Part shown: one piece after another, positions 5,593 through 24,489 of the stretch
How positions within the stretch are numbered: the first letter of the stretch is position 1
Layout of the letters: each line of letters opens with the position of its first letter
From: Acidobacteriota bacterium
Lineage (GTDB): Bacteria; Acidobacteriota; CAIWXX01
Assembly (NCBI GenBank): GCA_040755995.1
Contig: JBFMAF010000008.1
Location: 32,001 to 96,000 of the forward strand
Length of the DNA stretch: 64,000 nucleotides
Direction of reading: 5' to 3'
Program-made: the position numbers and the translations under genes
The notes under the pieces: model-generated
The model's input: the letters and a program-made list of their open reading frames with translations, nothing else
Told to the model about the DNA's origin: nothing
The model's database searches: none

Positions 5593-6147
5593 ATGATCGC
5601 GAAAAAAGCGCTCTCCCTGGCGGTTCTCTTCCTGGCGGTGCTTTCGCCGGCCGTCGCGGCTCAAGCCCTCGACCCGAGGATGTCGGCCCTCGAGCCCCTC
5701 CTCCACAAGGAGTGGAAGGGGATGATGAAAGCCCCGGACGGCTCGACGGTGTGGGAAGTCGTCTGCCGTTTTGAGGCCGTCGGGTCCGGCCTGCTGGTCA
5801 AGTACGACCGGAGGACGACGGGCCGGGCCGATTTTGAAGAGGGCTATTTCTACTGGGACGACCCGGCCAAGAAGCTCGCCCTCTTCGCCGTGCACAGCGG
5901 CGGTTCCTTCCGGACCGGACTCGTCAAGGCCGAGAGCGGGGTTCTCACGATCGAGGGCAGGATGGCATGGCCGGTGGCGCCTCCAGATCCGCGGGTCAAG
6001 CAGTCTTATGATTTCCGGAACACCTTCACTCTCGTTTCCGAAACCGAGATGACAGACCGCTGGTTCCAGAACGCCTTCGGGCCGTGGCGTCCCGGGCACG
6101 AAATCGTCTTCAGGGGGGAGGTGAAAACCCCGGCTCGCCCGGATTGA
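5593..6147 (+). CDS. Secreted hypothetical protein
   Basis: AGGAG RBS, AxA signal peptide, directly follows upstream gene. Confidence 0.65.
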   Translation: MIAKKALSLAVLFLAVLSPAVAAQALDPRMSALEPLLHKEWKGMMKAPDGSTVWEVVCRFEAVGSGLLVKYDRRTTGRADFEEGYFYWDDPAKKLALFAVHSGGSFRTGLVKAESGVLTIEGRMAWPVAPPDPRVKQSYDFRNTFTLVSETEMTDRWFQNAFGPWRPGHEIVFRGEVKTPARPD

Positions 6148-6197
6148 GGACGGTTTTTCTCCCGGGCGGCGGAATGGGGTATGATTCCCGGAGAGAG

Positions 6198-8015
6198 ATG
6201 AAACGCCATCCGCGGATTGCGGCCCTGGCTGTGCGGACGGCGGGCTTGCTCGCCCTCGGTGGATTCCTCCTGTCTTGCGCCCCGCTCTCCGCCGAAGCGG
6301 TTCAGGACCCTGGGGAGGACGCGCCTCCTCCGCTGATCAGCCTCACCAAATGGAACCTCAAGACCGGCGACGATCCGGCCTGGTCCCGTCCAGACTTCGA
6401 CGACTCCTCGTGGGGCCGGGTGGAGGTGGCTGGGCGCTTCGAGGGCCACGGGCTGTTCTGGCTGCGCGCCACCGTCGATGTGGCCGGGCCGTTTCCCGAT
6501 TCCGATCCGCCGATGATCTCCGTCTACAACCTGCCGTCGGCTTTTGAGGTGTACTGGGACGGGAGACTGGTCGGCCGGAACGGCCGCTGCGACTCCAGGC
6601 ACAGCGGGGAAATCCCGGGCCGGGTGAGGTTCGTCCTGATCCTCGGCACCAGCCAGGTTCAACCGGGAACGCATCTCCTTGCCCTTCGCGTTTCCAATTT
6701 CCACCTCAAGGGCAAGACCGTCGTCACCGGGATCGGCCTCGGTCCGCAGAGCGCCTTGGCCGGCTACATCGACCGCATGGTCGATCGTCGGTTGGTTTCG
6801 ATGGGTCTGTATTTCGTGGCCGCCCTTTGCGGCCTGTTCCTCTTCGTCGGGCGGAGGAAGAACACCGCCTTCCTGTTCTTCGGCGGATTCGCCCTCCTGT
6901 TTTTCCTCCACAGCCTCTGGATCTATCTCATCGAAAGAATGGGGCTCAGCCTTCCCCCATTTGCCGTGATCGAGATCCTCGTGATCTTCGGGATTCCCGC
7001 CGCCTTCGTCTTGCTGGACGCTTTCTTGCTCTGGCACCACGAATTCCGCCGCCGGTCGACGTATCTGGCCGTCCTGGCCGTGGCCATGGCCGGGGCGGCC
7101 CTCTGGGGTTCCGGTCTGGGCGATGTCCAGGCCCGGCTCATCGGCCTTCCGGTCGCTTTCGGCTTGGGCTTGGCCGTTGCCCTGGCAGTCCAGAGAAGGC
7201 GGGGATGGGGAATGGCGCTGGTCGGAACGGCGGTTCCCGCCGTCAACCATGTTGGGATCTTTTTCATCCCGGGGTTGCTACCGTTTCTGGAGAGTCTGCC
7301 GGGATTCGCTGAAATGGCCCTGACCGCGCTGGTTCTGGCGATGTTCATTGGGATCATCGCCCTTCGCATCCGCGATGAGAACCAGGCCCTTGAGATCCTG
7401 CGCGTCCGGTCCCAGCGGCTCGCGGCCGAGCTTCTGAAGAAGAGTATCCAGCCCCATTTCATCATGAACACCCTGCTGTCCGCGCAGTCCTGGTTCGGCC
7501 GGGACCCGGACAAGGCGGGACGGTTGATCGAGGCCCTGGCTGGAGAGTTCCGGATCATCAGCCGGATCGTTTCCGAGCCGGAGATCGACCTGGCCCAGGA
7601 AATCGCCCTGTGCAGGAGCCACCTTGAACTGATGGGATATCGGCGGGACGCGATCTACCGGCTGGTCGTCAACGGCGACGTCTCCAGCTTGAAGGTCCCT
7701 CCGATGCTCTTTCATACATTGATTGAAAACGGTTTGACCCACGCCTATGAAGCCCGGGAGAACGGGACGTTCATCCTGACCTGCGAAGAGAGGAACGGGA
7801 GCGTCGAACTCCGGCTGGAGAACGACGGGTCCCGGCTGTCTCGGATCTCGGAGATGCCAGGCGACAAACTGGAAGAAGGCTTGGGCTTGAAGTACATCCG
7901 GACGCGCCTGGAAGAGAGCTTTTCCGGCCAGTGGGAGCTGGAGTACGGGTTGAAGGAGTCCCTCTGGCGCGTCCGGATCGTCATTCGCGGAAGGATGGAG
8001 CGATGCGGGTCCTGA
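6198..8015 (+). CDS. LytS/YehU-type membrane sensor histidine kinase
   Basis: IQPHFIMNTL H-box, LIENGLTH, ENDG, GLGL boxes; extracellular domain and multiple TM helices. Confidence 0.9.
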   Translation: MKRHPRIAALAVRTAGLLALGGFLLSCAPLSAEAVQDPGEDAPPPLISLTKWNLKTGDDPAWSRPDFDDSSWGRVEVAGRFEGHGLFWLRATVDVAGPFPDSDPPMISVYNLPSAFEVYWDGRLVGRNGRCDSRHSGEIPGRVRFVLILGTSQVQPGTHLLALRVSNFHLKGKTVVTGIGLGPQSALAGYIDRMVDRRLVSMGLYFVAALCGLFLFVGRRKNTAFLFFGGFALLFFLHSLWIYLIERMGLSLPPFAVIEILVIFGIPAAFVLLDAFLLWHHEFRRRSTYLAVLAVAMAGAALWGSGLGDVQARLIGLPVAFGLGLAVALAVQRRRGWGMALVGTAVPAVNHVGIFFIPGLLPFLESLPGFAEMALTALVLAMFIGIIALRIRDENQALEILRVRSQRLAAELLKKSIQPHFIMNTLLSAQSWFGRDPDKAGRLIEALAGEFRIISRIVSEPEIDLAQEIALCRSHLELMGYRRDAIYRLVVNGDVSSLKVPPMLFHTLIENGLTHAYEARENGTFILTCEERNGSVELRLENDGSRLSRISEMPGDKLEEGLGLKYIRTRLEESFSGQWELEYGLKESLWRVRIVIRGRMERCGS

Positions 8016-8719
8016 TCGTGGAAGACGAGCCTCCGATCGCGGATTACATCGAGGAGAGCATCCGCGCGGTCCTTGGGGCCGAGCTCAAGGACGTGGAGAC
8101 GGCCTATTCGCTCGATGATGCAGTGGGCCTCCTCGCGCAGAAGAAGATCGACGTCTGCTTCTTGGACCTCAACCTCAGCGGCCGGGACGGCTATGAAATA
8201 CTGGAACGGGCCATGTCCCGGCCGTTCCATACGATCATCATTTCCGCCCACACCGAGCAGGCCGCTCGCGCATTCGAGTACGGCGTCGTCGACTTCGTTC
8301 CCAAGCCCTTCAGCCGGGAGCGGCTGCGCCAGGCCCTCGACCGCTGTCTCAGCCTCCAGAGAAGCCCGTCCCCGGCGAGGTTTCTGACTTTCCGGAAGAA
8401 CAACCGGAACGGCCTCCTGCCGGTCGGGGAGATCCTCCTGTTGAAGGCCACGCGCTACCTGGTCGAGGTCTGGATGAAGGACGGCCGCCGCGAGCTGATC
8501 GAGAAGCCCTTGAACCGCCTGCAAAAGATCCTTCCCGAATCATTCGCCCGGATCCACCGGACGTATATCGTCAACCTGGATCAGGTCGAATCGTACAGGC
8601 ATCTCGGAGGGAGCCGTTATGCGATACGGTTGAAGAACGGCGACATCCTCCCGATGAGCCGCCATCGGCTCCGGGAACTCAAGCGCGTGTTCGGGAAGGA
8701 TTGTCCGGGACGGATTTGA
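8003..8719 (+). CDS. LytTR family response regulator
   Basis: RVLIVEDE, FLDLNL, DFVPKP receiver; FARIHRTYIVNL LytTR motif; overlaps kinase stop. Confidence 0.92.
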   Translation: MRVLIVEDEPPIADYIEESIRAVLGAELKDVETAYSLDDAVGLLAQKKIDVCFLDLNLSGRDGYEILERAMSRPFHTIIISAHTEQAARAFEYGVVDFVPKPFSRERLRQALDRCLSLQRSPSPARFLTFRKNNRNGLLPVGEILLLKATRYLVEVWMKDGRRELIEKPLNRLQKILPESFARIHRTYIVNLDQVESYRHLGGSRYAIRLKNGDILPMSRHRLRELKRVFGKDCPGRI

Positions 8720-11451: not shown

Positions 11452-13311
11452 ATGTGGGAAGCGTATTCGCTTGTCAAGCGGGCTCTCTTAGGACCGGTCG
11501 CATCGTGTTCGAGCCCTGGGGTTTTCGAGACACCGCGGCACCTGGGCTACCGCGACCTGGGGAGACTCCGGCCGTTCCTGGCCTCTCACTGGCGAAACGG
11601 GGCGGTGGCCGTTGCAGCGATGCTCGTGAGCACGCTGCTCTCGTTGCCGCAGCCGATGCTGGCGAAGTACGTTGTCGACGTTGTGATCGCAGGGCACGAC
11701 ATGCGGTTGCTCAACGTTGTTGGGCTCGGGATGATCGCCCTCGCAGTCGCAACCGCCCTGACTGGCCTCGTCCAGAACGTCCACCTGCTCCGATTCCAGC
11801 AGGATCTCATCTGCGAGATTCAGCAGAGGCTGCTGGATCGGGTCCTGCGCCTGCCGAAAGCGCTGCTGGACTCGAAGCAGACCGGGTACCTTGTCTCCCG
11901 GGTGGTGAGCGACGTCGCGCGGTTGCAGGCGCTCTTCTCGACGGGTGTGATCATGGTATTGCCCTCGGCGGTGAAGCTGACGTTCTGGCTCGGGGTGATG
12001 TTCTGGCTCAACTGGCGGCTGTCGCTGCAGGCGCTGGCGATCCTGCCGCTGATGATGTTGATAGCTCATCGGGCGGGAGGCCGCGTGAGGACTCTGAGCC
12101 GCGTGGCGATGGAGCGCGCGGCGGTGCTGTCTCGGGAGCTGCAGCAGTCGCTGGCGGGCCTGATGGTGATCAAGACGTTTGCCACTGAGTCCCGCGAGAC
12201 CCTGCGGCTGAAAGGAATTCTGCGCGATTCGATCGAGGTAGGAGTGGATCACGGTGTAGCCTCGACGGTCGCCACCCTGACGATCGGCCTGGTTGGAACG
12301 GTTGCACTGAGTTTGGTGACATGGGCTGGAGCGGGCCAGATCATCGCAGGATCGATGACGCTGGGAGATTTCGTCGCGTTTAACGCGTGTCTGGTAGCCA
12401 TTTACGGTCCGGCGCAGGCGCTGGTCTCGTTGAATGTCGCGGTGCAGGCCTCGTTTGCCGCACTAGAGCGGGTGTTCCAGTTGCTAGACCTGGTGCCCGA
12501 GGACGAGGACGACGATTCGAAAACGACCGTGCGGACCATCCGGGGTGACATCGCCTTCGAACACGTGATGTTCTCGTACGACGGCGTGAAACCGGTCCTG
12601 ACGGACATCTCGTTTGCCGCGAGACCGGGCGAGATGATCGCGCTGGTCGGTCCGAGCGGGGCGGGCAAGACGACGCTGGTCAGTCTGCTGGTGCGGTTGT
12701 ACAGCCCGTCCAGCGGTCGGATCCGCATCGACGGCACAGACGTCGCCGAGCTGAACGTGAGGTCGGTCCGGGAGCGGATCGCGGTCGTCTCCCAGGACGT
12801 ATTCCTCTTCGACGCCACGATTCGCGACAACATCCGGTACGCGAGGCCCTCGGCGTCTGATGCGGACGTCCGAGAAGCCGCGGCGCTGGCGGGCGCGCAG
12901 CAGTTCATCGAGGAGTTGCCGGACGGGTACGAAACGCGGGTCGGAGAGAGAGGCCAACGGCTGTCGGCAGGACAGAGACAGCGGTTGTCGCTGGCGCGGG
13001 CGTTTCTGAAGAGCCCCGATGTACTCGTCCTCGATGAGCCGACCTCGGCGCTGGATCCGTTGGCCGAGGGAGAAGTCAAGACGGCGATGACGCGGTTTGC
13101 CGAGGACCGGACCACGTTCGTGATCGGCCATCGTCTTTCCACGGTGGCCTGCGCGACGCGGATTCTGGTGCTCGACAAGGGGGTGATCGTCCAGGCGGGC
13201 TCGCACAGCGAGCTGATTCGACAGGAAGGGTTGTACAAGTCGATGTGCCGGAATCGGATGATCGCGGATCTCGTGCCTGCCGCGGCTGTGTCCAGGAAGA
13301 CAGGGTGCTGA
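11452..13311 (+). CDS. ABC exporter, fused permease/ATPase
   Basis: TM domain, GPSGAGKT, LSAGQRQR, VLVLDEPTSALD, IGHRLST. Confidence 0.92.
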   Translation: MWEAYSLVKRALLGPVASCSSPGVFETPRHLGYRDLGRLRPFLASHWRNGAVAVAAMLVSTLLSLPQPMLAKYVVDVVIAGHDMRLLNVVGLGMIALAVATALTGLVQNVHLLRFQQDLICEIQQRLLDRVLRLPKALLDSKQTGYLVSRVVSDVARLQALFSTGVIMVLPSAVKLTFWLGVMFWLNWRLSLQALAILPLMMLIAHRAGGRVRTLSRVAMERAAVLSRELQQSLAGLMVIKTFATESRETLRLKGILRDSIEVGVDHGVASTVATLTIGLVGTVALSLVTWAGAGQIIAGSMTLGDFVAFNACLVAIYGPAQALVSLNVAVQASFAALERVFQLLDLVPEDEDDDSKTTVRTIRGDIAFEHVMFSYDGVKPVLTDISFAARPGEMIALVGPSGAGKTTLVSLLVRLYSPSSGRIRIDGTDVAELNVRSVRERIAVVSQDVFLFDATIRDNIRYARPSASDADVREAAALAGAQQFIEELPDGYETRVGERGQRLSAGQRQRLSLARAFLKSPDVLVLDEPTSALDPLAEGEVKTAMTRFAEDRTTFVIGHRLSTVACATRILVLDKGVIVQAGSHSELIRQEGLYKSMCRNRMIADLVPAAAVSRKTGC

Positions 13312-13325
13312 GGCCCGGCAGGCGA

Positions 13326-13388
13326 TTGGACACGCCCATGGTCCAGCAGACCTGGCGCTCTTGCAGCGTGTTCTCCGCCGGTACGGAA
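13326..13388. repeat. Inverted imperfect copy of ~15008-15068 (internal to the Ntn-hydrolase gene)
   Basis: Encodes DTPMVQQTWRSCSVFSAGTE versus DTPMIQQTWRFCSVFSAGTE on the minus strand. Confidence 0.85.
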
Positions 13389-13401
13389 TTCCCCGGCGCC
13401 T

Positions 13402-14119
13402 TGGCCATGACCGGGACGGCCGTCTGGGGTTCCGCACTCGGCGATGTCCAGGCCCGGCTCATCGGCGTTCCGGTAGCTTTCGGCGTCGGCTTGGCCGTTG
13501 CCCTGGCAGTCCAGAGGAAGCGGGGATTGGGAATGGCTCTGGTCGGAACGGGGGTTCCCGCCGTCAACCATGTCGGGGTCTTTATCATCCCGGGGTTGTT
13601 ACCGTTTCAGGAGAGTCTGCCGGGATTCGCTGAAATGGCCCTGACCGCGCTGGTTCTGGCGATGTTCATTGGGATCATCGCCCTTCGCATCCGCGATGAG
13701 AACCAGGCACTTGAGATCCTTCCCGAATCATTCGCCCGGATCCACCGGACCTATGTCGTCAACCTGGACCAGGTCGAATCGTACAGGCATCTCGGAGGGA
13801 GCCGTTATGCGATCCGGTTGAAGAACGGGGATATTCTCCCGATGAGCCGCCATCGGCTCCGGGAACTCGAGCGCGTGTTCGGGAAGGATTGCCCGGGACG
13901 GATTTGATCAGATGGTTCGTTGACAGTGAAGGTCACCCGGTCATGAAGTTCCCAAGTGAGACTCGTAAGATCAGGCCAGTTGGATCTGCTCGTCGAACGC
14001 CTGATCGATGATTGCGTTCGACACCACCCCATGTTCGCCGGCCGACAGTTCGCACCTCGGCGGCGTGGAGCCGGCTCCGCTGCAGGCGCCGGGGATGATG
14101 TCGAGGACCAACTGCTTCC
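13402..14119 (+). pseudogene. Internally deleted duplicate of the kinase/LytTR locus (7081-7399 joined to 8533-8931)
   Basis: Direct DNA similarity; junction at shared AGATCCT (13714-13720). Confidence 0.9.
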
Positions 14120-14190
14120 GGTCGAGCACAAACAAAGCCGCGGGTACGGGTGCCGGCCTTCGGCCTGGGTACGGTGCGTTGTGTCATGAT

Positions 14191-15330
14191 TCATCGCTCT
14201 GAGGCACCGCCTCGCTGGGTGCTGTCGGAGGCCGGGCCAGTGCTGTCTCCTTGCCGCGGCCAGAGTCCTTCCAGATGATAAAGAACATCCCACTTCTGAT
14301 ACACCGAGAAATGCAGATCCAACGTCTTCGGTGCATAGACGACAGACCACGTGGTGCCCTTCTGCGCAACTTCCTGAAGGAGTTTCATTCCGGCACTCCG
14401 GTCCGCGTTTCCTCTGGTCTTGTCGAGGGCTTCTGAGATGGTTCGGAAGCGCCAGCACTGTTCTCGAAGACTCGCATCCGGCACGCCGAACACCGGTTTC
14501 GTTGTGAGGACCTGCCAGGACCTCTGGGGGCGCACTATTCTCCACTGATCCTGCTCGTGTTCCAGGATCACCGAACGCCCCGATGCATCGGCGACCAGGA
14601 AATGCGCGTTGAACGAGTTTCGATCGAGGTCGAAGGGGATGAAGTCATTGATGAATGCCACCGCCTCCTCGACACTCCTCGTCCGGTCGAGGATCATGCG
14701 TATCAAGAAGGTAGTGAAGACCAATTGCTTGTTGGCTCTCGGCGCATGAGTGGTGGGTCTCACGCCGGCGACTGCAACAGTCAAGCCGTGCTCGTTGATG
14801 CCGTCCATGGCATAGAACGGGGCCAGAAGGAGCCTGTTCCCCATCTCACTCCCTTTGACCTGCTCGAGGTCAACGTTCAATGGAAATCCAATATCAATTG
14901 CCCTGGTAAACGAAATAGAGGAGTACCCGTTGGGAGGTTGATAGAAACTGACGATGATCGAGCCGACATTCTGATTGTCCCAATTCCTTCCGATGATTGG
15001 ACAGTGTTCCGTGCCGGCGGAGAATACGCTACAAAAGCGCCAGGTCTGCTGGATCATGGGCGTGTCCAGTGCTTTCTGGTTTTCCTTCCGGAACAGCTCC
15101 TCGCGATCGCCGAAATGTGTGATGAGGTAGAGCCCGTCCTGGCACATTCCCCCTGTTCCCTGGACCTTCACAATGCTCTGCTGCGTTCTGGCCTCATCTG
15201 ACATCGACCGCGGAGGCTGTTGGAATCTCACCTCGACGATCTCCTGCTGCGCACGCGCGAGCCCGGCGATGATGAACAGGGAAATCAATGACGACGCCCA
15301 GACCCTCCCCGGATCTCGATTGAATGACAT
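14191..15330 (-). CDS. Secreted Ntn-hydrolase (C45 / linear amide C-N hydrolase family)
   Basis: FCSVF nucleophile Cys, GRNWD, DGINEHGL, HFLVADASG; GGAGG before ATG 15330. Confidence 0.8.
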   Translation of the reverse strand: MSFNRDPGRVWASSLISLFIIAGLARAQQEIVEVRFQQPPRSMSDEARTQQSIVKVQGTGGMCQDGLYLITHFGDREELFRKENQKALDTPMIQQTWRFCSVFSAGTEHCPIIGRNWDNQNVGSIIVSFYQPPNGYSSISFTRAIDIGFPLNVDLEQVKGSEMGNRLLLAPFYAMDGINEHGLTVAVAGVRPTTHAPRANKQLVFTTFLIRMILDRTRSVEEAVAFINDFIPFDLDRNSFNAHFLVADASGRSVILEHEQDQWRIVRPQRSWQVLTTKPVFGVPDASLREQCWRFRTISEALDKTRGNADRSAGMKLLQEVAQKGTTWSVVYAPKTLDLHFSVYQKWDVLYHLEGLWPRQGDSTGPASDSTQRGGASER

Positions 15331-15486
15331 CTGGGACCTCCTCTCCATCTCTGTACGTGGGTCCATGTTTTCGCGTTCCACTCGGCCTTCTCATGAGTGT
15401 ACGGTTGCGGAGCGGAGAGAAGTCGAGAAAAGACTCCGAATCGCTCTTTGAGACTCCCAGCTGCGTCCGCATGCCTGAACGCGCGA

Positions 15487-16650
15487 TTACCCGGCGGGTC
15501 TGGGGATTTCAGGTGGGCGGGCGTTTCGTGCGAGATCGACGAGCCGCCGGCAACTGGCAGCCAGGTCCGGACCGTGGCGATGCAAGTCGCCGCCGATAAG
15601 CAACACGACGTCAGGGCCGTAGAACGAGATCAGCTCGGGGACGCGCGGCAGGCTCATGCCGCCGGCCGGCACGGGGAAGATGGGATTGAGGCCCCCCAGG
15701 TCGCACTCGGTGCACTGCACGATATCGAGACACTCCTCGCGGCTGAACGAGAAGCGCCCGCGGAAACTGGGGAAGATCGTGGCGTCTGCGCCGGCGAGCC
15801 GCGCGATGCGACCGAATATCGTGCCATGAGAAATACCCGAGTCCCCGCTCACGATCGCCCAACCCTGCCACGCCGGATGGCTGAAGATCGGCAGGGCGAT
15901 CGAGTCGTCCTCGGCGATCCGCCGCATGAAGTCGAAGCCGCTGAGACCCGGCGAGAGTACGAAGCCGCCCGCTCCCCACTCAACCGCCTTGTGCACGCGC
16001 TCGATGAGCTCGTCGCACGGTGCCGTGACGTTAGGCAAATAGATGCAACGCCCGCCGTGCTTGGCGTTGGCCTCGTTCACGGCTGCGGCGCAGCGTCTCA
16101 CACGCTCCTCGAAGCGGCAGAAGCTCTGGTCGCAGAGGCCGTGGTCATCCTTGACCGCATCAATGCCGCCCGCTGCGAACTGGCCAGCAAGGATGGCCAG
16201 CTCGTGCGGCGAGAGCCCCATCGGCTTGACGGCGGTGCAGAGCAGCGGACCGGCCGGGCGACCGACCAGCCCGCGCACCCCCTGCCGGCCGAAGCGCGGC
16301 CCCTTGTACAACGCAGCCAGCCCCGGCGGCAGATCGAAGCCGACGAGCCTGATTCCCCTCTTCAGGCTTATGTTGCCCATGAGGACATTGAGCAGTTGTG
16401 TAAGCTCGCGGCCTGCGACCTCGATCGGATAGTCTACTTCCGCGCGATGCAGATCTTCTCCGAGCGGCCTGAGGTCCACTAGCCGGCCGATGATCCCCTC
16501 GCGCACGTCCTCGCGGTGGATCAGCTCCACCGGGAACTCCACTGTCTGCTCGACGCAGATCTCGCGCGCGATTTCCCCGGCCTCTGCCGCGTTCCCGCGC
16601 AGGTGGTAGACCGCCCGTAGGCGTTCACCGCTCAATGCCGGCGTTCCCAA
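15487..16650 (-). CDS. RuBisCO-like protein (form IV), KDDH type
   Basis: ICVEQT, GPRFG, KPMGL, GGIDAVKDDHGL, YLPNVT, SHPA, PAGGM, IGG; probable TTG start just after the transketolase stop. Confidence 0.9.
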   Translation of the reverse strand: MGTPALSGERLRAVYHLRGNAAEAGEIAREICVEQTVEFPVELIHREDVREGIIGRLVDLRPLGEDLHRAEVDYPIEVAGRELTQLLNVLMGNISLKRGIRLVGFDLPPGLAALYKGPRFGRQGVRGLVGRPAGPLLCTAVKPMGLSPHELAILAGQFAAGGIDAVKDDHGLCDQSFCRFEERVRRCAAAVNEANAKHGGRCIYLPNVTAPCDELIERVHKAVEWGAGGFVLSPGLSGFDFMRRIAEDDSIALPIFSHPAWQGWAIVSGDSGISHGTIFGRIARLAGADATIFPSFRGRFSFSREECLDIVQCTECDLGGLNPIFPVPAGGMSLPRVPELISFYGPDVVLLIGGDLHRHGPDLAASCRRLVDLARNARPPEIPRPAG

Positions 16651-16660
16651 TGCTGCAGCC

Positions 16661-17680
16661 TCAAAGGTCCTCGACCACGCCGCCGCGGACCGGCTCAGGC
16701 GGCTCCGCCGCTGCCAGATCCTCCTCGCGCACACCCAGGGACTCGCCTGCCAATTCCTCAATTGCCCGCAAGAGGCCGAGGGCGTCGAGGCCATACTCGC
16801 GCATCAAATAGGTCCTGCTCGCACCGTGGGCGTAACAGTCCCTGAGCCCGAGGCGTACGAGCTTGCGCCCCACACCCGCCCCGGCCATCAGCTCGGCCGT
16901 CGCCGAGCCGAGTCCGCCGATTGTCGAGTGGTTCTCCAAGGTGATCACGCCGAGGCGTGCCGTCTGAACCGCATCGATCACTTGCGGATCGTCGAACGGC
17001 TTGAGTGTCGAGACGTGCAGGTGCGTAGCCGAGAGACCCCGGCGCTCGGCGGCCGCGATCGCCCGCACCGCCTCCTCGGTGCAGATGCCGCTCGTGATCA
17101 CAGCCAAATCGGTCCCCCGACGCAGCGTGCGAGCCTTGCCGATCTGGAGCGGCTCGTCGCGCGGGAACAGGCGAGGCACTTCGCCGCGCAGCATCCTCAC
17201 ATAGACAGGCCCATCGACCGGGTGAACCGCGTCGAGCACCGACTCCACATCGGTTGCGTCTCCGCAGTCGGTGACCGTCATGTTGGGCAGGGCCCGCATC
17301 AGCGCCACGTCGTCGATCGCCTGATGAGTCACGCCCCCAGGGGTGGTGACTCCTGGCAGGAAGCCGATCAGCCGCACCCTCAGATTCGGATAGGCAATCG
17401 ACATGGCGACCTGGTCCAGAGCCCGGCGGCAGATGAAGACGGCGAAGGTGTGGACATACGGGACAAAGCCCTCGCGGGCCAGGCCGCCTGCAAAGCCGAC
17501 CATGTTCTGCTCGGCCATGCCGAAAGAGAAAAAGCGCGCAGGGTAGGTCTCCCGAAAGTCGTCGGCCTCACACGACGATGTCAGGTCTGCGCTGAGCACG
17601 AGCAGCTCGGGATGATTCGCGGCGAAGCGAACCAAGTTGCGGGCGTGGGGCCGCTGCACCATCTCCATCTCAGGCCTCAC
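16661..17680 (-). CDS. Transketolase C-terminal subunit
   Basis: LSADL, GMAEQNM, TFAVF, GVTHQAIDD, TLKPFD, ENHSTIGGLG. Confidence 0.92.
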   Translation of the reverse strand: MRPEMEMVQRPHARNLVRFAANHPELLVLSADLTSSCEADDFRETYPARFFSFGMAEQNMVGFAGGLAREGFVPYVHTFAVFICRRALDQVAMSIAYPNLRVRLIGFLPGVTTPGGVTHQAIDDVALMRALPNMTVTDCGDATDVESVLDAVHPVDGPVYVRMLRGEVPRLFPRDEPLQIGKARTLRRGTDLAVITSGICTEEAVRAIAAAERRGLSATHLHVSTLKPFDDPQVIDAVQTARLGVITLENHSTIGGLGSATAELMAGAGVGRKLVRLGLRDCYAHGASRTYLMREYGLDALGLLRAIEELAGESLGVREEDLAAAEPPEPVRGGVVEDL

Positions 17681-18599
17681 TCAGATCGACCAGTGCGCGC
17701 CTGTAGGCCTCCCGCTCTGCCTCTGACTTGAAGCGCACGTAGTGGAGCCGCGGGCGGCGCTCCTCCAGCAGCGCGAGGCCGCGGCAGGGATCGGTGCGGC
17801 AAATCACCGCCAGTGGCCTGCCGGGCGCGAAGCCCTCACCTGCACTCGCGAGCGCCTCCAGGTCGTGGCCGTCGACTTCCTCGACCCGGGCTCCGAATGC
17901 TTCGAGCCGTGCCCGGAGCGGTTCGATGCGCATGACGTCGTCTATCTTGCCGTCGCACTGCTGCCCGTTGGCGTCGATGTAGACGCCGAGGTTGTCGACA
18001 CTGTGGTAGCTGAGCGCGGCAAATGCCTCCCATGTCTGCCCCTCTTGAAACTCGCCGTCGGACATGAAGACCCAGACCCGGCCTGTGTCGCCGCGCAGCT
18101 TGCGCGCAAGGGCGATGCCGCCCGCCTGGCTGATCGCCTGGGCGAGCGATCCGGCGGTGATTTCGTGGCCCGGCGAGTGCTCGGCGCCGATCATCTCCAA
18201 CGTACTCCCATCCTTGTTGAAGTCGTCAAGGGCGCAGTCGCCAAGGCGGCCGACCTCTATCAGCGCGGAGTAGAGTACAAGCGCGTAGTGCACGGGCGAG
18301 AAGATGAAGCGGTCGAGCTCAGGAGCTCTCTGCCCGTTGTAGTCGGCGCCGGTGAAAGCCCGAAGCTCGCCGGCCCGGGGCGTGGCGACGAACGGCCCAG
18401 GCACGAGCGGGCCCTGGCTCGGCCCCAGGCGCATCACTTTAAGGTAAAGAGCGGCCAGGATCTCCGCGGAGGAGCACGCCTGACTGAGATAGCCGCCGTT
18501 GTTTCTAAGCGTATGCTCCAGCACTCGCCGTCGAACCCCTCGCGCCATCCGGGCAGCTCGCGCTTGCCAGTCGTCAGCTGTGCCGTTGTGCCTCGTCAT
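17670..18599 (-). CDS. Transketolase N-terminal (ThDP-binding) subunit, atypical
   Basis: DRFIFS, GSLAQA, SDGEFQEGQTWEA...DAN, VDGHD. Confidence 0.88.
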   Translation of the reverse strand: MTRHNGTADDWQARAARMARGVRRRVLEHTLRNNGGYLSQACSSAEILAALYLKVMRLGPSQGPLVPGPFVATPRAGELRAFTGADYNGQRAPELDRFIFSPVHYALVLYSALIEVGRLGDCALDDFNKDGSTLEMIGAEHSPGHEITAGSLAQAISQAGGIALARKLRGDTGRVWVFMSDGEFQEGQTWEAFAALSYHSVDNLGVYIDANGQQCDGKIDDVMRIEPLRARLEAFGARVEEVDGHDLEALASAGEGFAPGRPLAVICRTDPCRGLALLEERRPRLHYVRFKSEAEREAYRRALVDLSEA

Positions 18600-22124: not shown

Positions 22125-23066
22125 ATGCGAGGTGGCGGAGGAGTGAAGTCGCGACCTGGACTTGAAGCAGCGCTGGCCGCTCTCCTGTCCGCGTGGTTTG
22201 GCGCCGCGGGATGCTGCGAAGGTTCGCCTGTCATCATCGACACGGATATGGCGCTGGACGATGTGCGCGCCATCGCTCTGCTCGCCTGTTCGAAGACACT
22301 GGAGATCAAAGCCGTCGTCACCTCTGACGGCGCAGCCGGTGCAGCTGCTGGATACGAGAACGCACTGGCTGTACTCGCGATCCTCGATCTCGATCACGTT
22401 CCGGTCGGGATGGGTCGGCCGCTGGACGCGCCACCGCCGCCTTGGCGCGGGCTTTCCGACGCGCTTGGATGGTCTCCGATGGGCTCGGCGGGTACACCGG
22501 GCCGATCACCGGCCGAGACGGTCGCGGTGGTGTCCAGCACTCTGGATGGCTCGGCCGCTCCCGTTGACTACATCTGCCTGGGACCACTCACGAACCTGGC
22601 GCAGGTGCTGCGGGAGAAGCCTGCGTTAGCGACCCGAATCGCAAGGGTGCTCTATGTTGGATCGAAGCGCGCCGATCCAACACCAGGCTGGAACACGCTT
22701 CGCGACACGGAGGGCGCCGATCGGGTCCTCGGGGCAGACCTCACCGTCTACCAGTTCGACTTGGAAGAGCCGAACGTGCTCCGATTCGATTCCGGCCTGT
22801 GGCAGGAGGTCGGTCGGATCGATACGGTCCCTTCAAATCTCATCTACGACCTGCATCGCGACAGCCGCGTCCAGGCGCTGCTGCGGGAACGGCATTTCTG
22901 TGCGTGGGACGAGACTGTCGCCCTCTACTTGCACGCTCCGACCATCGCCAGCACAGAACCACTCCCGGGTCGACCGCGCGGGCTCAGGATAGGCGGAGTA
23001 GACGTCGATGCCGCCCGGAACACTTACCTGGCGATCCTGAGACGGGGTCGAGCGGGACGATCGTGA
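22125..23066 (+). CDS. Nucleoside hydrolase family protein, probably exported
   Basis: IIDTDMALDD (DxDxxxDD), LGPLTNLA, WN, WD; hydrophobic N-terminus. Confidence 0.82.
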   Translation: MRGGGGVKSRPGLEAALAALLSAWFGAAGCCEGSPVIIDTDMALDDVRAIALLACSKTLEIKAVVTSDGAAGAAAGYENALAVLAILDLDHVPVGMGRPLDAPPPPWRGLSDALGWSPMGSAGTPGRSPAETVAVVSSTLDGSAAPVDYICLGPLTNLAQVLREKPALATRIARVLYVGSKRADPTPGWNTLRDTEGADRVLGADLTVYQFDLEEPNVLRFDSGLWQEVGRIDTVPSNLIYDLHRDSRVQALLRERHFCAWDETVALYLHAPTIASTEPLPGRPRGLRIGGVDVDAARNTYLAILRRGRAGRS

Positions 23067-23223: not shown

Positions 23224-24489
23224 ATGGAAGCGTCGAATCGACCGGAGGATCTGAAGAAACATTTCTACCTGGATTGCGGATTCGCCACACGCGCGCTGCA
23301 TGCAGGTGAGCACGTCGGGCAACCGCATTTCACGAACCACACCAACGCGATATTCCAGACGTCCACGTTCACCTTCGAAACGGCGAAGGACGGTGCCGAT
23401 CTGTTCGCGGCGCGGAAGGAGGGATTTGTCTACACGCGCATGGGCAACCCCACGGTGCTCGTGCTCGAGGCCAAGCTCGCAGCCCTCGAAGGGTGCGCCT
23501 ACAAATTGGCGCATCCTGAGAAGACCGTGTCGTGCATTGCGTTTTCCTCGGGAATGGCAGCCATCTCCTCCACGATGATGGCCATCCTGCGCCCCGGCGA
23601 TACACTGATCGCCGGAGAGGTGCTTTATGGCGCCACCGAGGACTTCTTCCGGACCGTCCTGCAGCCGCTTGGGATACGGTGGGTGCCCGTCGAGACCTCG
23701 AACCTGGAACTTCTTGAGGCAGCCCTGCGCCAGCACGACCGCGTGCGTGCTGTCTACTTCGAGACGCCGACCAACCCGTTGATGGGGATCACCGACATAC
23801 AGGCGCTTTCGACTCTCGTGCGCAGCATCAGGCCCGACTGCCACATCGTCGTCGACAACACTTTCGCGACACCGTTCCTGCAGCGCCCCCTCGAGCTCGG
23901 CGCAGACGTCGTGCTGCACTCCACCACCAAGTACATCGGGGGCCACGGCACGGTGATCGGCGGTGCAGTGATCATGGTGGACGAGGAGGTGCGCACTCAC
24001 CTCTACCACATGATGAAGGATTTCGGTGGGTGTCCGTCGCCGTTCGATGCGTGGCTCGTGAACGCAGGGCTGAAGACCCTGCCCCTCCGAATGCGCGAGC
24101 ACTGCGCCAACGCGCAGCGCATCGCCGAGTTCCTCGAACAGCACCCGAAGGTCGATCGCGTCTTCTACCCAGGGCTGCCTTCCTTCCCGCAGCATGACAT
24201 GGCCAAGAAGCAGATGAGCGGGTTCGGCGGCATCCTGTCATTCGAGATCAAAGGAGGCTACGCCGCCGCCGAGAAGGTGATGAACAGCGTGAGGTTGTTC
24301 ACCCTGGCAGTCTCCCTTGGATGCGTGGATTCGCTGATCCAGCATCCAGCGTCCATGACCCACGCCATGATCCCGCGCGGGGAGCGCGAGCGCATCGGGA
24401 TCTCCGAGGGCCTCGTTCGCCTCTCTGTCGGCGCGGAGGACGTGAACGACCTGCTGGGCGACCTCGAAAGCGCGCTCGGCAACGCGTAG
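23224..24489 (+). CDS. PLP trans-sulfuration enzyme (methionine gamma-lyase / cystathionine gamma-lyase family)
   Basis: [48 protein letters not shown]. Confidence 0.9.

What the first reader, a model, noticed from the sequence alone, without database searches (positions are those of the whole stretch)
15487..18599. KDDH RuBisCO-like protein coupled to a split transketolase
Seen: tightly linked tktN-tktC-RLP; RLP motif KDDH rather than KDDE. Known: the Rhodospirillum rubrum KDDH-type RLP isomerises methylthioribulose-1-P to methylthioxylulose-5-P, which a cupin then processes; other RLPs act in apionate catabolism. No cupin is seen here. Inference: the ThDP enzyme may cleave or transfer C2 from a 1-substituted xylulose-5-P, giving an alternative MTA/5'-deoxyadenosine salvage route.
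Basis: partly seen in the sequence, partly recalled or inferred. Interest (0 to 1): 0.78.

Follow-up and report, generated by a model that had tools for sequence, protein, structure and literature searches.

The report
RuBisCO-like isomerase with remodelled transketolase
A non-carbon-fixing RuBisCO relative sits in one operon with a two-piece, transketolase-like thiamine enzyme whose sugar-gripping residues are rebuilt; together they probably break down the sulfur sugar left over from S-adenosylmethionine use, by a widespread route not found in the papers searched.

Summary
In detail: an intact tktN-tktC-RLP operon, RLP with KDDH. The RLP groups with transketolase-linked RLPs, sister to RLPs lying beside Rru_A2000-type cupins; MtnW and OiaX fall outside. 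The pairing is conserved: 49 of 80 relatives' loci carry the RLP in cis and 48 of 50 genomes carry it. None of 55 such genomes has a close cupin orthologue. Relatives sit beside mtnK/mtnA, metY/metX, or a nucleoside phosphorylase, deaminase and S-oxide reductase. This genome has mtnP and mtnA elsewhere. The transketolase keeps its ThDP residues but has H26Y, H100L/M, H461L and D469G (E. coli numbering), fitting a donor without a C1 hydroxyl. The same enzyme also occurs without an RLP, beside a kinase, dehydrogenase and epimerase-like set, so it probably acts downstream. Best reading (0.7): it replaces the cupin and cleaves 1-methylthio-pentulose-5-P to glyceraldehyde-3-P. Release of methanethiol plus an acetyl unit is my favoured but untested ending (about 0.4). 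The scan reported this cassette before on other DNA.

The parts
17670..18599 (-). tktN: ThDP-binding (PP) chain of a split transketolase-like enzyme, 309 aa. Keeps H66, the (S)DGE...N metal/diphosphate motif and H261; has Tyr for H26, Met for H100, an invariant extra His141 and a ~27-residue insertion.
   Evidence: PF00456 E 1.5e-16. Best PDB match 6yak, E 2.4e-34 by sequence and TM 0.74 by fold. Residue counts; insertion seen.
16661..17668 (-). tktC: pyrimidine-binding and C-terminal chain, 335 aa from the ATG at 17668. Keeps E411, F434, H473, R358, S385 and R520; has Leu for H461 and Gly for D469.
   Evidence: PF02779 + PF02780; 6yaj E 1.2e-61; start codon and GAGG spacing read from sequence.
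15487..16650 (-). RuBisCO-like protein (form IV, KDDH group), 382-387 aa depending on the TTG start; the only RuBisCO-family gene found in the genome.
   Evidence: PF00016 E 2.3e-25. Below the cut-offs of MtnW (205/409) and OiaX (96/700). Best PDB match 3qfw E 2.8e-72. Tree; single copy.

Best explanation
A cupin-independent branch of methylthioadenosine (MTA) salvage. MtnP and MtnA, encoded elsewhere in this genome, turn MTA into 5-methylthioribulose-1-P (inferred from family scores). The RLP isomerises it to 1-methylthio-pentulose-5-P (inferred from kinship to the R. rubrum/R. palustris type). The TktN/TktC ThDP enzyme then adds to C2 and breaks C2-C3, releasing glyceraldehyde-3-P (inferred from the active site and gene context). 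My favoured last step (about 0.4 overall): the bound 2-methylthio-1-hydroxyethyl unit eliminates methanethiol, giving acetyl-ThDP and then acetate or acetyl-phosphate. This needs no reductant, unlike the cupin route. Alternatives are release as methylthioacetaldehyde or transfer to an aldose. In this genome the role is probably housekeeping disposal of MTA; in relatives with importers it is catabolism of external methylthioribose.
For: Pairing; 23 of the top 25 plasmid RLP hits have tktN about 2 kb upstream (several are near-identical Ensifer plasmids). Replacement of the cupin: no close Rru_A2000 orthologue in 55 of 55 transketolase-type genomes; no transketolase in 80 of 80 cupin loci; the one cupin-type genome searched whole lacks this enzyme. 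Context: mtnK-mtnA-tktN-tktC-RLP on two named plasmids and in L018; mtnK within the fetched stretch at 12 of 20 loci from one alphaproteobacterial family; phosphorylase-deaminase-mtnA-S/N-oxide reductase-tkt-RLP in Ponticoccus; metY/metX upstream in planctomycete loci; mtnA in 48 of 50 genomes. This genome has MtnP, MtnA and two acetate kinases over cut-off and a separate canonical split transketolase. Active site: H100 is Leu/Met and H26 is Tyr in 90 of 90; D469 is Gly in 81 of 81. H100L/F lets transketolase use a donor without the hydroxyl (PMC7661550, PMC10787763, passages). Downstream position: near-identical enzymes occur without an adjacent RLP, beside a BisC-like reductase, FGGY kinase, Zn-dehydrogenase and AraD-like protein; two genomes with this enzyme have no RuBisCO-family match at all.
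Against: No activity was measured. [quoted passage not shown] The link between the two sister clades has modest support (0.84). Fourteen of 55 genomes hold distant cupins (29-41% identity, best E 2.7e-16) whose function I did not test. Cupin loci are mostly short, so 0 of 80 is a weak test. This genome has no MetY over cut-off and no mtnK hit, and its mtn genes are unlinked. The metY/metX link comes from one lineage. The loop holding the H100 site has pLDDT<50, so that equivalence rests on alignment and spacing; invariant His141 might take over its role. A divergent copy lies in an unrelated cluster with crotonase- and reductase-like genes, so the family can be repurposed. Canonical transketolase suppresses elimination to acetyl-ThDP (PMC8015787, passages). 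A class II aldolase domain in a fusion protein of this genome could also consume the RLP's substrate.
Confidence: 0.7

Rival explanations
1. The main substrate is the 5'-deoxy series. 5'-deoxyadenosine gives 5-deoxyribulose-1-P, the RLP makes 1-deoxy-xylulose-5-P (DXP), and the ThDP enzyme cleaves surplus DXP to glyceraldehyde-3-P plus acetaldehyde or a transferred hydroxyethyl unit.
For: H100L/M is the change that suits a methyl-ended donor (PMC7661550 passages). MtnK/MtnA-like genes also serve 5-deoxyribose (PMC6079011 passages). This genome has dxr and ispG but no dxs over cut-off and no HMG-CoA reductase, so RLP-made DXP would be useful.
Against: A cytoplasmic BisC-like S/N-oxide reductase recurs beside the transketolase (L259/L271, L233, L234, L274, L278), which fits an oxidisable sulfur group, not a methyl. 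metY/metX neighbours point to methanethiol. The enzyme takes the place of a cupin that acts on the methylthio compound.
Confidence: 0.15
2. Same pathway, other stereochemistry: the enzyme acts on the RLP's minor product, 1-methylthio-D-ribulose-5-P (the C3 epimer), or on both epimers. This is a variant of the best explanation, not exclusive of it.
For: The RLP makes a 3:1 xylulose:ribulose mix (PMC5893883 passages). H26Y reverses E. coli transketolase enantioselectivity to 88% R, and H26 and D469 are hydrogen-bond partners (PMC3657141 passages). Both are replaced throughout this family.
Against: The RLP-free clusters L233 and L234 carry a protein scoring best as L-ribulose-5-P 4-epimerase (245 bits, cut-off 251), whose usual product has the D-xylulose configuration (recalled).
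Confidence: 0.2
3. The enzyme is a DXP-synthase substitute (pyruvate + glyceraldehyde-3-P to DXP) that fills the missing dxs step.
For: dxs is missing here while dxr and ispG are present. H100L plus a D469 change is an engineered route to pyruvate use (PMC10787763 passages).
Against: 32 of 50 genomes with this enzyme have dxs. Of 16 relatives with dxr but no dxs, only 1 has this enzyme. It does not explain the coupling to the RLP.
Confidence: 0.04
4. The operon catabolises some other sugar (apiose-, hamamelose- or tetronate-type RLP chemistry, or an unknown 5-substituted pentose), with the transketolase doing ordinary ketol transfer.
For: Some loci carry FGGY kinases, SDRs and sugar importers instead of mtnK. 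One divergent copy sits in an unrelated cluster.
Against: OiaX scores 96 against a cut-off of 700, is 26% identical, and lies outside the clade. mtnK/mtnA dominate the informative neighbourhoods. Four conserved substrate residues of ordinary transketolases are replaced, and a canonical split transketolase is already present.
Confidence: 0.1

Closest known systems
MTA-isoprenoid shunt of Rhodospirillum rubrum and Rhodopseudomonas palustris (MtnP, MtnA, DeepYkr RLP, cupin methylsulfurylase Rru_A2000)
   Same: MtnP and MtnA are present. The RLP is of the KDDH group, with 59 columns at least 90% conserved across cupin-type and transketolase-type sets. The partner gene is adjacent to the RLP.
   Different: No Rru_A2000-type cupin; a ThDP enzyme stands in its place, upstream rather than downstream. 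The RLP belongs to a separate sister clade (KPMG vs KPQG, EQT vs EQS, a small insertion near residue 267). The predicted product is triose-P plus a C2 unit, not DXP.
Split transketolase of Carboxydothermus hydrogenoformans (PDB 6yak/6yaj)
   Same: Two-chain architecture, fold (TM 0.74), and the ThDP- and metal-binding residues.
   Different: H26Y, H100L/M, H461L, D469G, an invariant new His141 and a ~27-residue insertion; only about 30% identity in the N chain.
DHAP shunt (MtnK/MtnP, MtnA, Ald2/DrdA)
   Same: Same entry steps; also splits a 5-substituted pentulose phosphate into a triose phosphate and a C2 unit.
   Different: It uses a class II aldolase directly on the 1-phosphate, with no RLP and no ThDP. 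Several relatives' clusters carry an aldolase-type gene as well as the RLP-transketolase pair.
Phosphoketolase and sulfoacetaldehyde acetyltransferase (recalled)
   Same: Proposed chemistry: a ThDP-bound C2 unit loses its beta leaving group to give acetyl-ThDP.
   Different: Different families; neither appeared among the family hits. The analogy is mechanistic only and untested.

Membership tests
DeepYkr RLP (MTRu-1P 1,3-isomerase) | RuBisCO large-subunit domain with KDDH in place of KDDE | tested here: met
DeepYkr RLP (MTRu-1P 1,3-isomerase) | Groups with cupin-linked RLPs rather than with MtnW or OiaX | tested here: met
   (89 sequences, FastTree): transketolase clade 0.96, cupin core clade 1.0, joint node 0.84. 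[quoted passage not shown]
DeepYkr RLP (MTRu-1P 1,3-isomerase) | Isomerase activity on 5-methylthioribulose-1-P | not testable with these tools
   Needs an assay.
MTA-isoprenoid shunt | MtnP (or MtnN+MtnK) and MtnA in the genome | tested here: met
   TIGR01694 315/275; TIGR00512 439/279.
MTA-isoprenoid shunt | Rru_A2000-type cupin methylsulfurylase | tested here: not met
   No match at E<=1e-8 in G000 with a query that matches Rru_A2000 at E 9e-44.
MTA-isoprenoid shunt | O-acetylhomoserine sulfhydrylase to recapture methanethiol | tested here: inconclusive
   No TIGR01326 match over cut-off; five Cys/Met PLP enzymes and a MetX-like gene are present.
MtnW (YkrW-type enolase RLP) | NCBIfam cut-off and clade | tested here: not met
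   205/409 and 157/514 bits; 29% identity, outside the clade.
OiaX (apionate RLP) | NCBIfam cut-off and clade | tested here: not met
   96/700 bits; 26% identity.
Canonical transketolase | Fold and ThDP/metal-binding residues (H66, GDG..N motif, E411, F434) | tested here: met
Canonical transketolase | Substrate residues H26, H100, H461, D469 | tested here: not met
   Tyr 90/90; Leu or Met 90/90; Leu 80/81; Gly 81/81. All transketolase models are far below cut-off.
DXP synthase | TIGR00204 cut-off, single chain | tested here: not met
   150/466 bits for TktC; two chains.

The most novel reading that the evidence does not exclude
TktN/TktC is a transketolase-derived, ThDP-dependent carbon-sulfur lyase. 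It splits 1-methylthio-pentulose-5-P into glyceraldehyde-3-P, methanethiol and acetyl-phosphate or acetate without oxygen or reductant. It would be the shared end point of at least three feeder routes (MtnP/MtnK-MtnA-RLP; kinase-RLP; reductase-dehydrogenase-kinase-epimerase without RLP), and a widespread, unrecognised biological source of methanethiol.
Probability: 0.35. Interest if true: 0.85.

Novelty: new variant of a known kind. Interest (0 to 1): 0.7.

Why it matters
It would add a further MTA/methylthioribose salvage route and show that the DeepYkr RLP has a second partner. In the small unbiased samples here, that partner was at least as common as the textbook cupin: 3 to 1 among 400 Pseudomonadota genomes and 23 to 1 among plasmid records. 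It gives a function to a family of mis-annotated 'transketolase/DXS' genes (at least 436 matches in GTDB species genomes), may reveal new ThDP chemistry, and offers a natural transketolase that already carries substitutions engineers introduce (H100L, H26Y, D469 change). All steps can be tested with purified enzymes.

Tried and rejected
DXS substitute: rejected. A TktC-RLP fusion in L268 as evidence of a complex: the junction looks like a one-base frameshift in the last codons of tktC, so it was not used and no complex was predicted. The small EutQ-like cupin after tktC in 11 purple-sulfur-bacterial loci is PF05899, about 98 aa, and the Rru_A2000-type query did not pick it up in the genomes searched. 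The AlphaFold model of TktN confirmed the fold but left residues 134-149 unresolved. The promoter/terminator scan gave nothing above chance. The methionine gamma-lyase-like and nucleoside-hydrolase-like genes 3.5-6 kb upstream lie on the other strand and are not conserved neighbours, so they were left out. Paper searches listed no paper describing the pairing; Erb 2012 was not held. The tktN scan used two peptide patterns and misses alphaproteobacterial variants, so 436 is a lower bound.
Full report
Observation. The minus strand carries three intact genes: tktN (18599-17670, 309 aa), tktC (17668-16661, 335 aa) and an RLP (16650 or 16635 to 15487). The tktC ATG lies one base after the tktN stop, and the RLP TTG lies 10 or 25 bases after the tktC stop; a GAGG precedes the tktC ATG and the first TTG. 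Pfam gives Transketolase_N; Transket_pyr plus Transketolase_C; and RuBisCO_large. No NCBIfam model reaches cut-off for any of the three. The RLP motif is KDDH.

The RLP. Its best solved relative is 3qfw (E 2.8e-72); that this is an R. palustris RLP is recalled, not shown by the call. For a reference set I took an RLP-adjacent cupin from G425, which matches PDB 3jzv 'Rru_A2000' at E 9e-44, and fetched 80 metagenome loci with it. Of these, 67 show an RLP directly upstream, the other 13 have under 600 bases upstream, and 0 of 80 show a transketolase (many loci are short). I built a tree of 89 RLPs: 39 transketolase-adjacent, 8 from genomes with this transketolase but not directly after it, 39 cupin-adjacent, one orphan, MtnW and OiaX. 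The query falls in a transketolase-type clade (support 0.96), sister to the cupin-type clade (core 1.0; joint node 0.84). A Vibrio transketolase-linked RLP branches just outside both, then MtnW. KDDH occurs in 45 of 47 and 38 of 39 sequences, and 59 columns are at least 90% conserved in both sets. Mean identity of the query is 53% to its own set, 36% to the cupin set, 29% to MtnW and 26% to OiaX. R. rubrum and R. palustris RLP1 isomerise 5-methylthioribulose-1-P to a 3:1 mix of 1-methylthio-xylulose-5-P and -ribulose-5-P (PMC5893883, passages). Their sequences were not in my tree, so the same activity here is an inference.

Conservation. A tktN profile found 436 matches in GTDB species genomes, of which the best 80 were fetched. 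Record titles span planctomycetes, proteobacteria, myxobacteria, Chloroflexota, Acidobacteriota, spirochaetes, Clostridia, Nitrospirae, Desulfobacterota, a Udaeobacter and one MAG labelled Promethearchaeota (binning not checked). The RLP is in cis at 49 of 80 loci (38 directly after tktC); 8 loci end too soon and 23 lack it. I searched 50 of these 80 genomes whole: 48 have the RLP (the two misses lie at contig ends, one with a partial RLP), 48 have mtnA and 32 have dxs. In the other direction, 4 of 400 sampled genomes from the phylum of G046 had this RLP; 3 were transketolase-linked and 1 cupin-linked. Among the top 25 plasmid RLP hits, 23 have tktN about 2 kb upstream, 1 has a cupin and 1 stands alone (several records are near-identical). 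The cupin query found no close orthologue in 55 transketolase-type genomes; 14 had distant cupins of 29-41% identity that I did not examine. In the host's own phylum the cassette is patchy: 1 of 40 relatives, and 0 of 2 in its family.

Neighbourhoods. The order mtnK-mtnA-tktN-tktC-RLP, beside a sugar ABC importer, occurs on Pararhizobium and Brucella anthropi plasmids and in G450. mtnK and mtnA directly precede tktN in 2 of the 80 GTDB loci (L018, scanned over cut-off; L080 by clustering) and lie further along in L113 and L114. In the family of G478, 21 of 301 genomes have the enzyme; of 20 loci fetched, 15 have the RLP adjacent and 12 have mtnK. Ponticoccus has phosphorylase, deaminase-like amidohydrolase, mtnA, BisC-like reductase, tktN, tktC and RLP in one run. 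metY lies upstream in 5 and metX in 6 planctomycete loci, probably one lineage (one of each scanned). In Marinovum and Paracoccus seriniphilus the transketolase has no adjacent RLP. It faces a BisC-like reductase without a twin-arginine signal, an FGGY kinase, a Zn-dehydrogenase and a protein scoring best as L-ribulose-5-P 4-epimerase (all below cut-off). These RLP-free enzymes interleave with RLP-linked ones on short branches and keep Y37, M136 and H141. G488 and G617 have no RuBisCO-family match; G722 keeps its RLP-mtnK-mtnA cluster elsewhere. Dehydrogenase, kinase and 4-epimerase could make a 1-substituted xylulose-5-P from a substituted pentitol (inference), which places the transketolase downstream of the RLP product. 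Against a single role, a second, divergent copy in G722 (H141R) sits among crotonase- and reductase-like genes.

The transketolase. The predicted TktN fold matches 6yak best (TM 0.74). Across 90 N chains and 81 C chains, cofactor residues are kept: H66 89/90; D, E and N of the metal motif 90/90; H261 90/90; E411, F434 and H473 81/81. Most phosphate ligands are kept too: R358 73/81, S385 80/81, R520 80/81. But H26 is Tyr in 90/90, H100 is Leu (60) or Met (30), H461 is Leu in 80/81 and D469 is Gly in 81/81, and a new His141 is invariant. E. coli numbering comes from alignment to the genome's canonical split enzyme, the 6yak alignment and recalled spacing; that loop is unresolved in the model. 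H100 is a donor-binding residue, replaced by Phe in DXS, and H100L/F admits pyruvate (PMC7661550 and PMC10787763, passages). H26Y reverses enantioselectivity, H26 pairs with D469, and H461 binds phosphate (PMC3657141, passages). This fits a phosphorylated donor without a C1 hydroxyl and leaves the C3 configuration open.

Host genome. G000 (99.8% complete) has this one RLP; MtnP and MtnA over cut-off on other contigs; no mtnK hit; no stand-alone class II aldolase, only one domain in a 1281-aa fusion; two acetate kinases; no MetY over cut-off; and two other split transketolases. It has dxr and ispG but no dxs and no HMG-CoA reductase. That gap is not explained by this operon: 16 of 40 relatives have dxr without dxs and only 1 of them has this enzyme (counts include G025, whose data are unpublished). 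Missing dxs is a known open question (PMC10663253, passages).

Mechanism. Shown: gene content, linkage, residue changes, absence of the cupin. Inferred: MTA to MTRu-1P, RLP isomerisation, and ThDP cleavage at C2-C3 to glyceraldehyde-3-P (0.7). For the C2 unit I favour loss of methanethiol to give acetyl-ThDP (about 0.4 overall). The reasons: thiolate is a better leaving group than hydroxide (established chemistry); several ThDP enzymes make acetyl-ThDP by such elimination, though canonical transketolase avoids it (PMC8015787, passages); transfer would make dead-end methylthio-sugars; and aldehyde release would duplicate aldolase-type genes found in some of the same clusters. None of this is tested.

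Literature and novelty. Searches listed nothing on an RLP-transketolase pathway. The word transketolase or ketolase had zero occurrences in PMC5893883, PMC6302742, PMC6079011 and PMC4958253. I saw passages only of those papers and of PMC10986504, and the first third of PMC13663882. Erb 2012, Warlick 2012, Imker 2008 and Carter 2018 were not read; they, their supplements, figure S6 of PMC4958253 or theses may mention the pairing. This scan noted the same cassette in at least seven other windows, and the BisC cluster once; these are unchecked AI notes and are not counted as support. Verdict: a real, widespread, apparently uncharacterised variant of the MTA-isoprenoid shunt; interest 0.7.

Noticed in passing
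G000:C20:15808-19650 (L258:1809-5651): A 1281-aa fusion of an FGGY kinase, a 2-hydroxyacid dehydrogenase, an SCP2 domain and a class II aldolase; the genome's only aldolase II domain.
   Followed up: partly
G000 and relatives G001-G040: dxr present but dxs not found in G000 and 16 of 40 relatives; the DXP source in this phylum is unexplained.
   Followed up: partly
window 13245-14190: A mosaic ORF joining diverged pieces of the C45-like hydrolase at 14191-15381, the sensor kinase at 6084-8015 and the LytTR regulator at 7931-8719; a decayed duplication or an assembly chimera.
   Followed up: no
window 23224-24489 and G000:C38:17730-18992: Two near-identical methionine gamma-lyase-like genes, each followed by similar small genes; a duplicated block.
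   Followed up: no
window 22125-23066: A nucleoside-hydrolase-family gene (PF01156) with a signal-peptide-like N terminus, on the opposite strand to the operon.
   Followed up: no
L114:6682-8418: In Alkalispirochaeta the cluster includes three EutN/CcmL-like shell vertex genes (one scanned), a class II aldolase, mtnK and mtnA; a possible microcompartment link.
   Followed up: partly
L268:2636-4753: tktC reads through into the RLP as one 706-aa frame, apparently through a frameshift near the end of tktC.
   Followed up: yes
L078:4912-6852: A single-chain 647-aa form of this transketolase, followed by a Cys/Met PLP enzyme below all cut-offs.
   Followed up: partly
L013 and L126 (G052): Operon split in a planctomycete: tktN stays with metY/metX while tktC-RLP lies about 190 kb away.
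   Followed up: partly
L003:9979-10272 and 10 similar loci: A small EutQ-like cupin (PF05899) follows tktC in purple-sulfur-bacterial loci that lack an adjacent RLP.
   Followed up: partly
L280:6698-11542: A divergent copy of this transketolase among crotonase-like, ketopantoate-reductase-like and dehydrogenase genes, with no RLP.
   Followed up: partly
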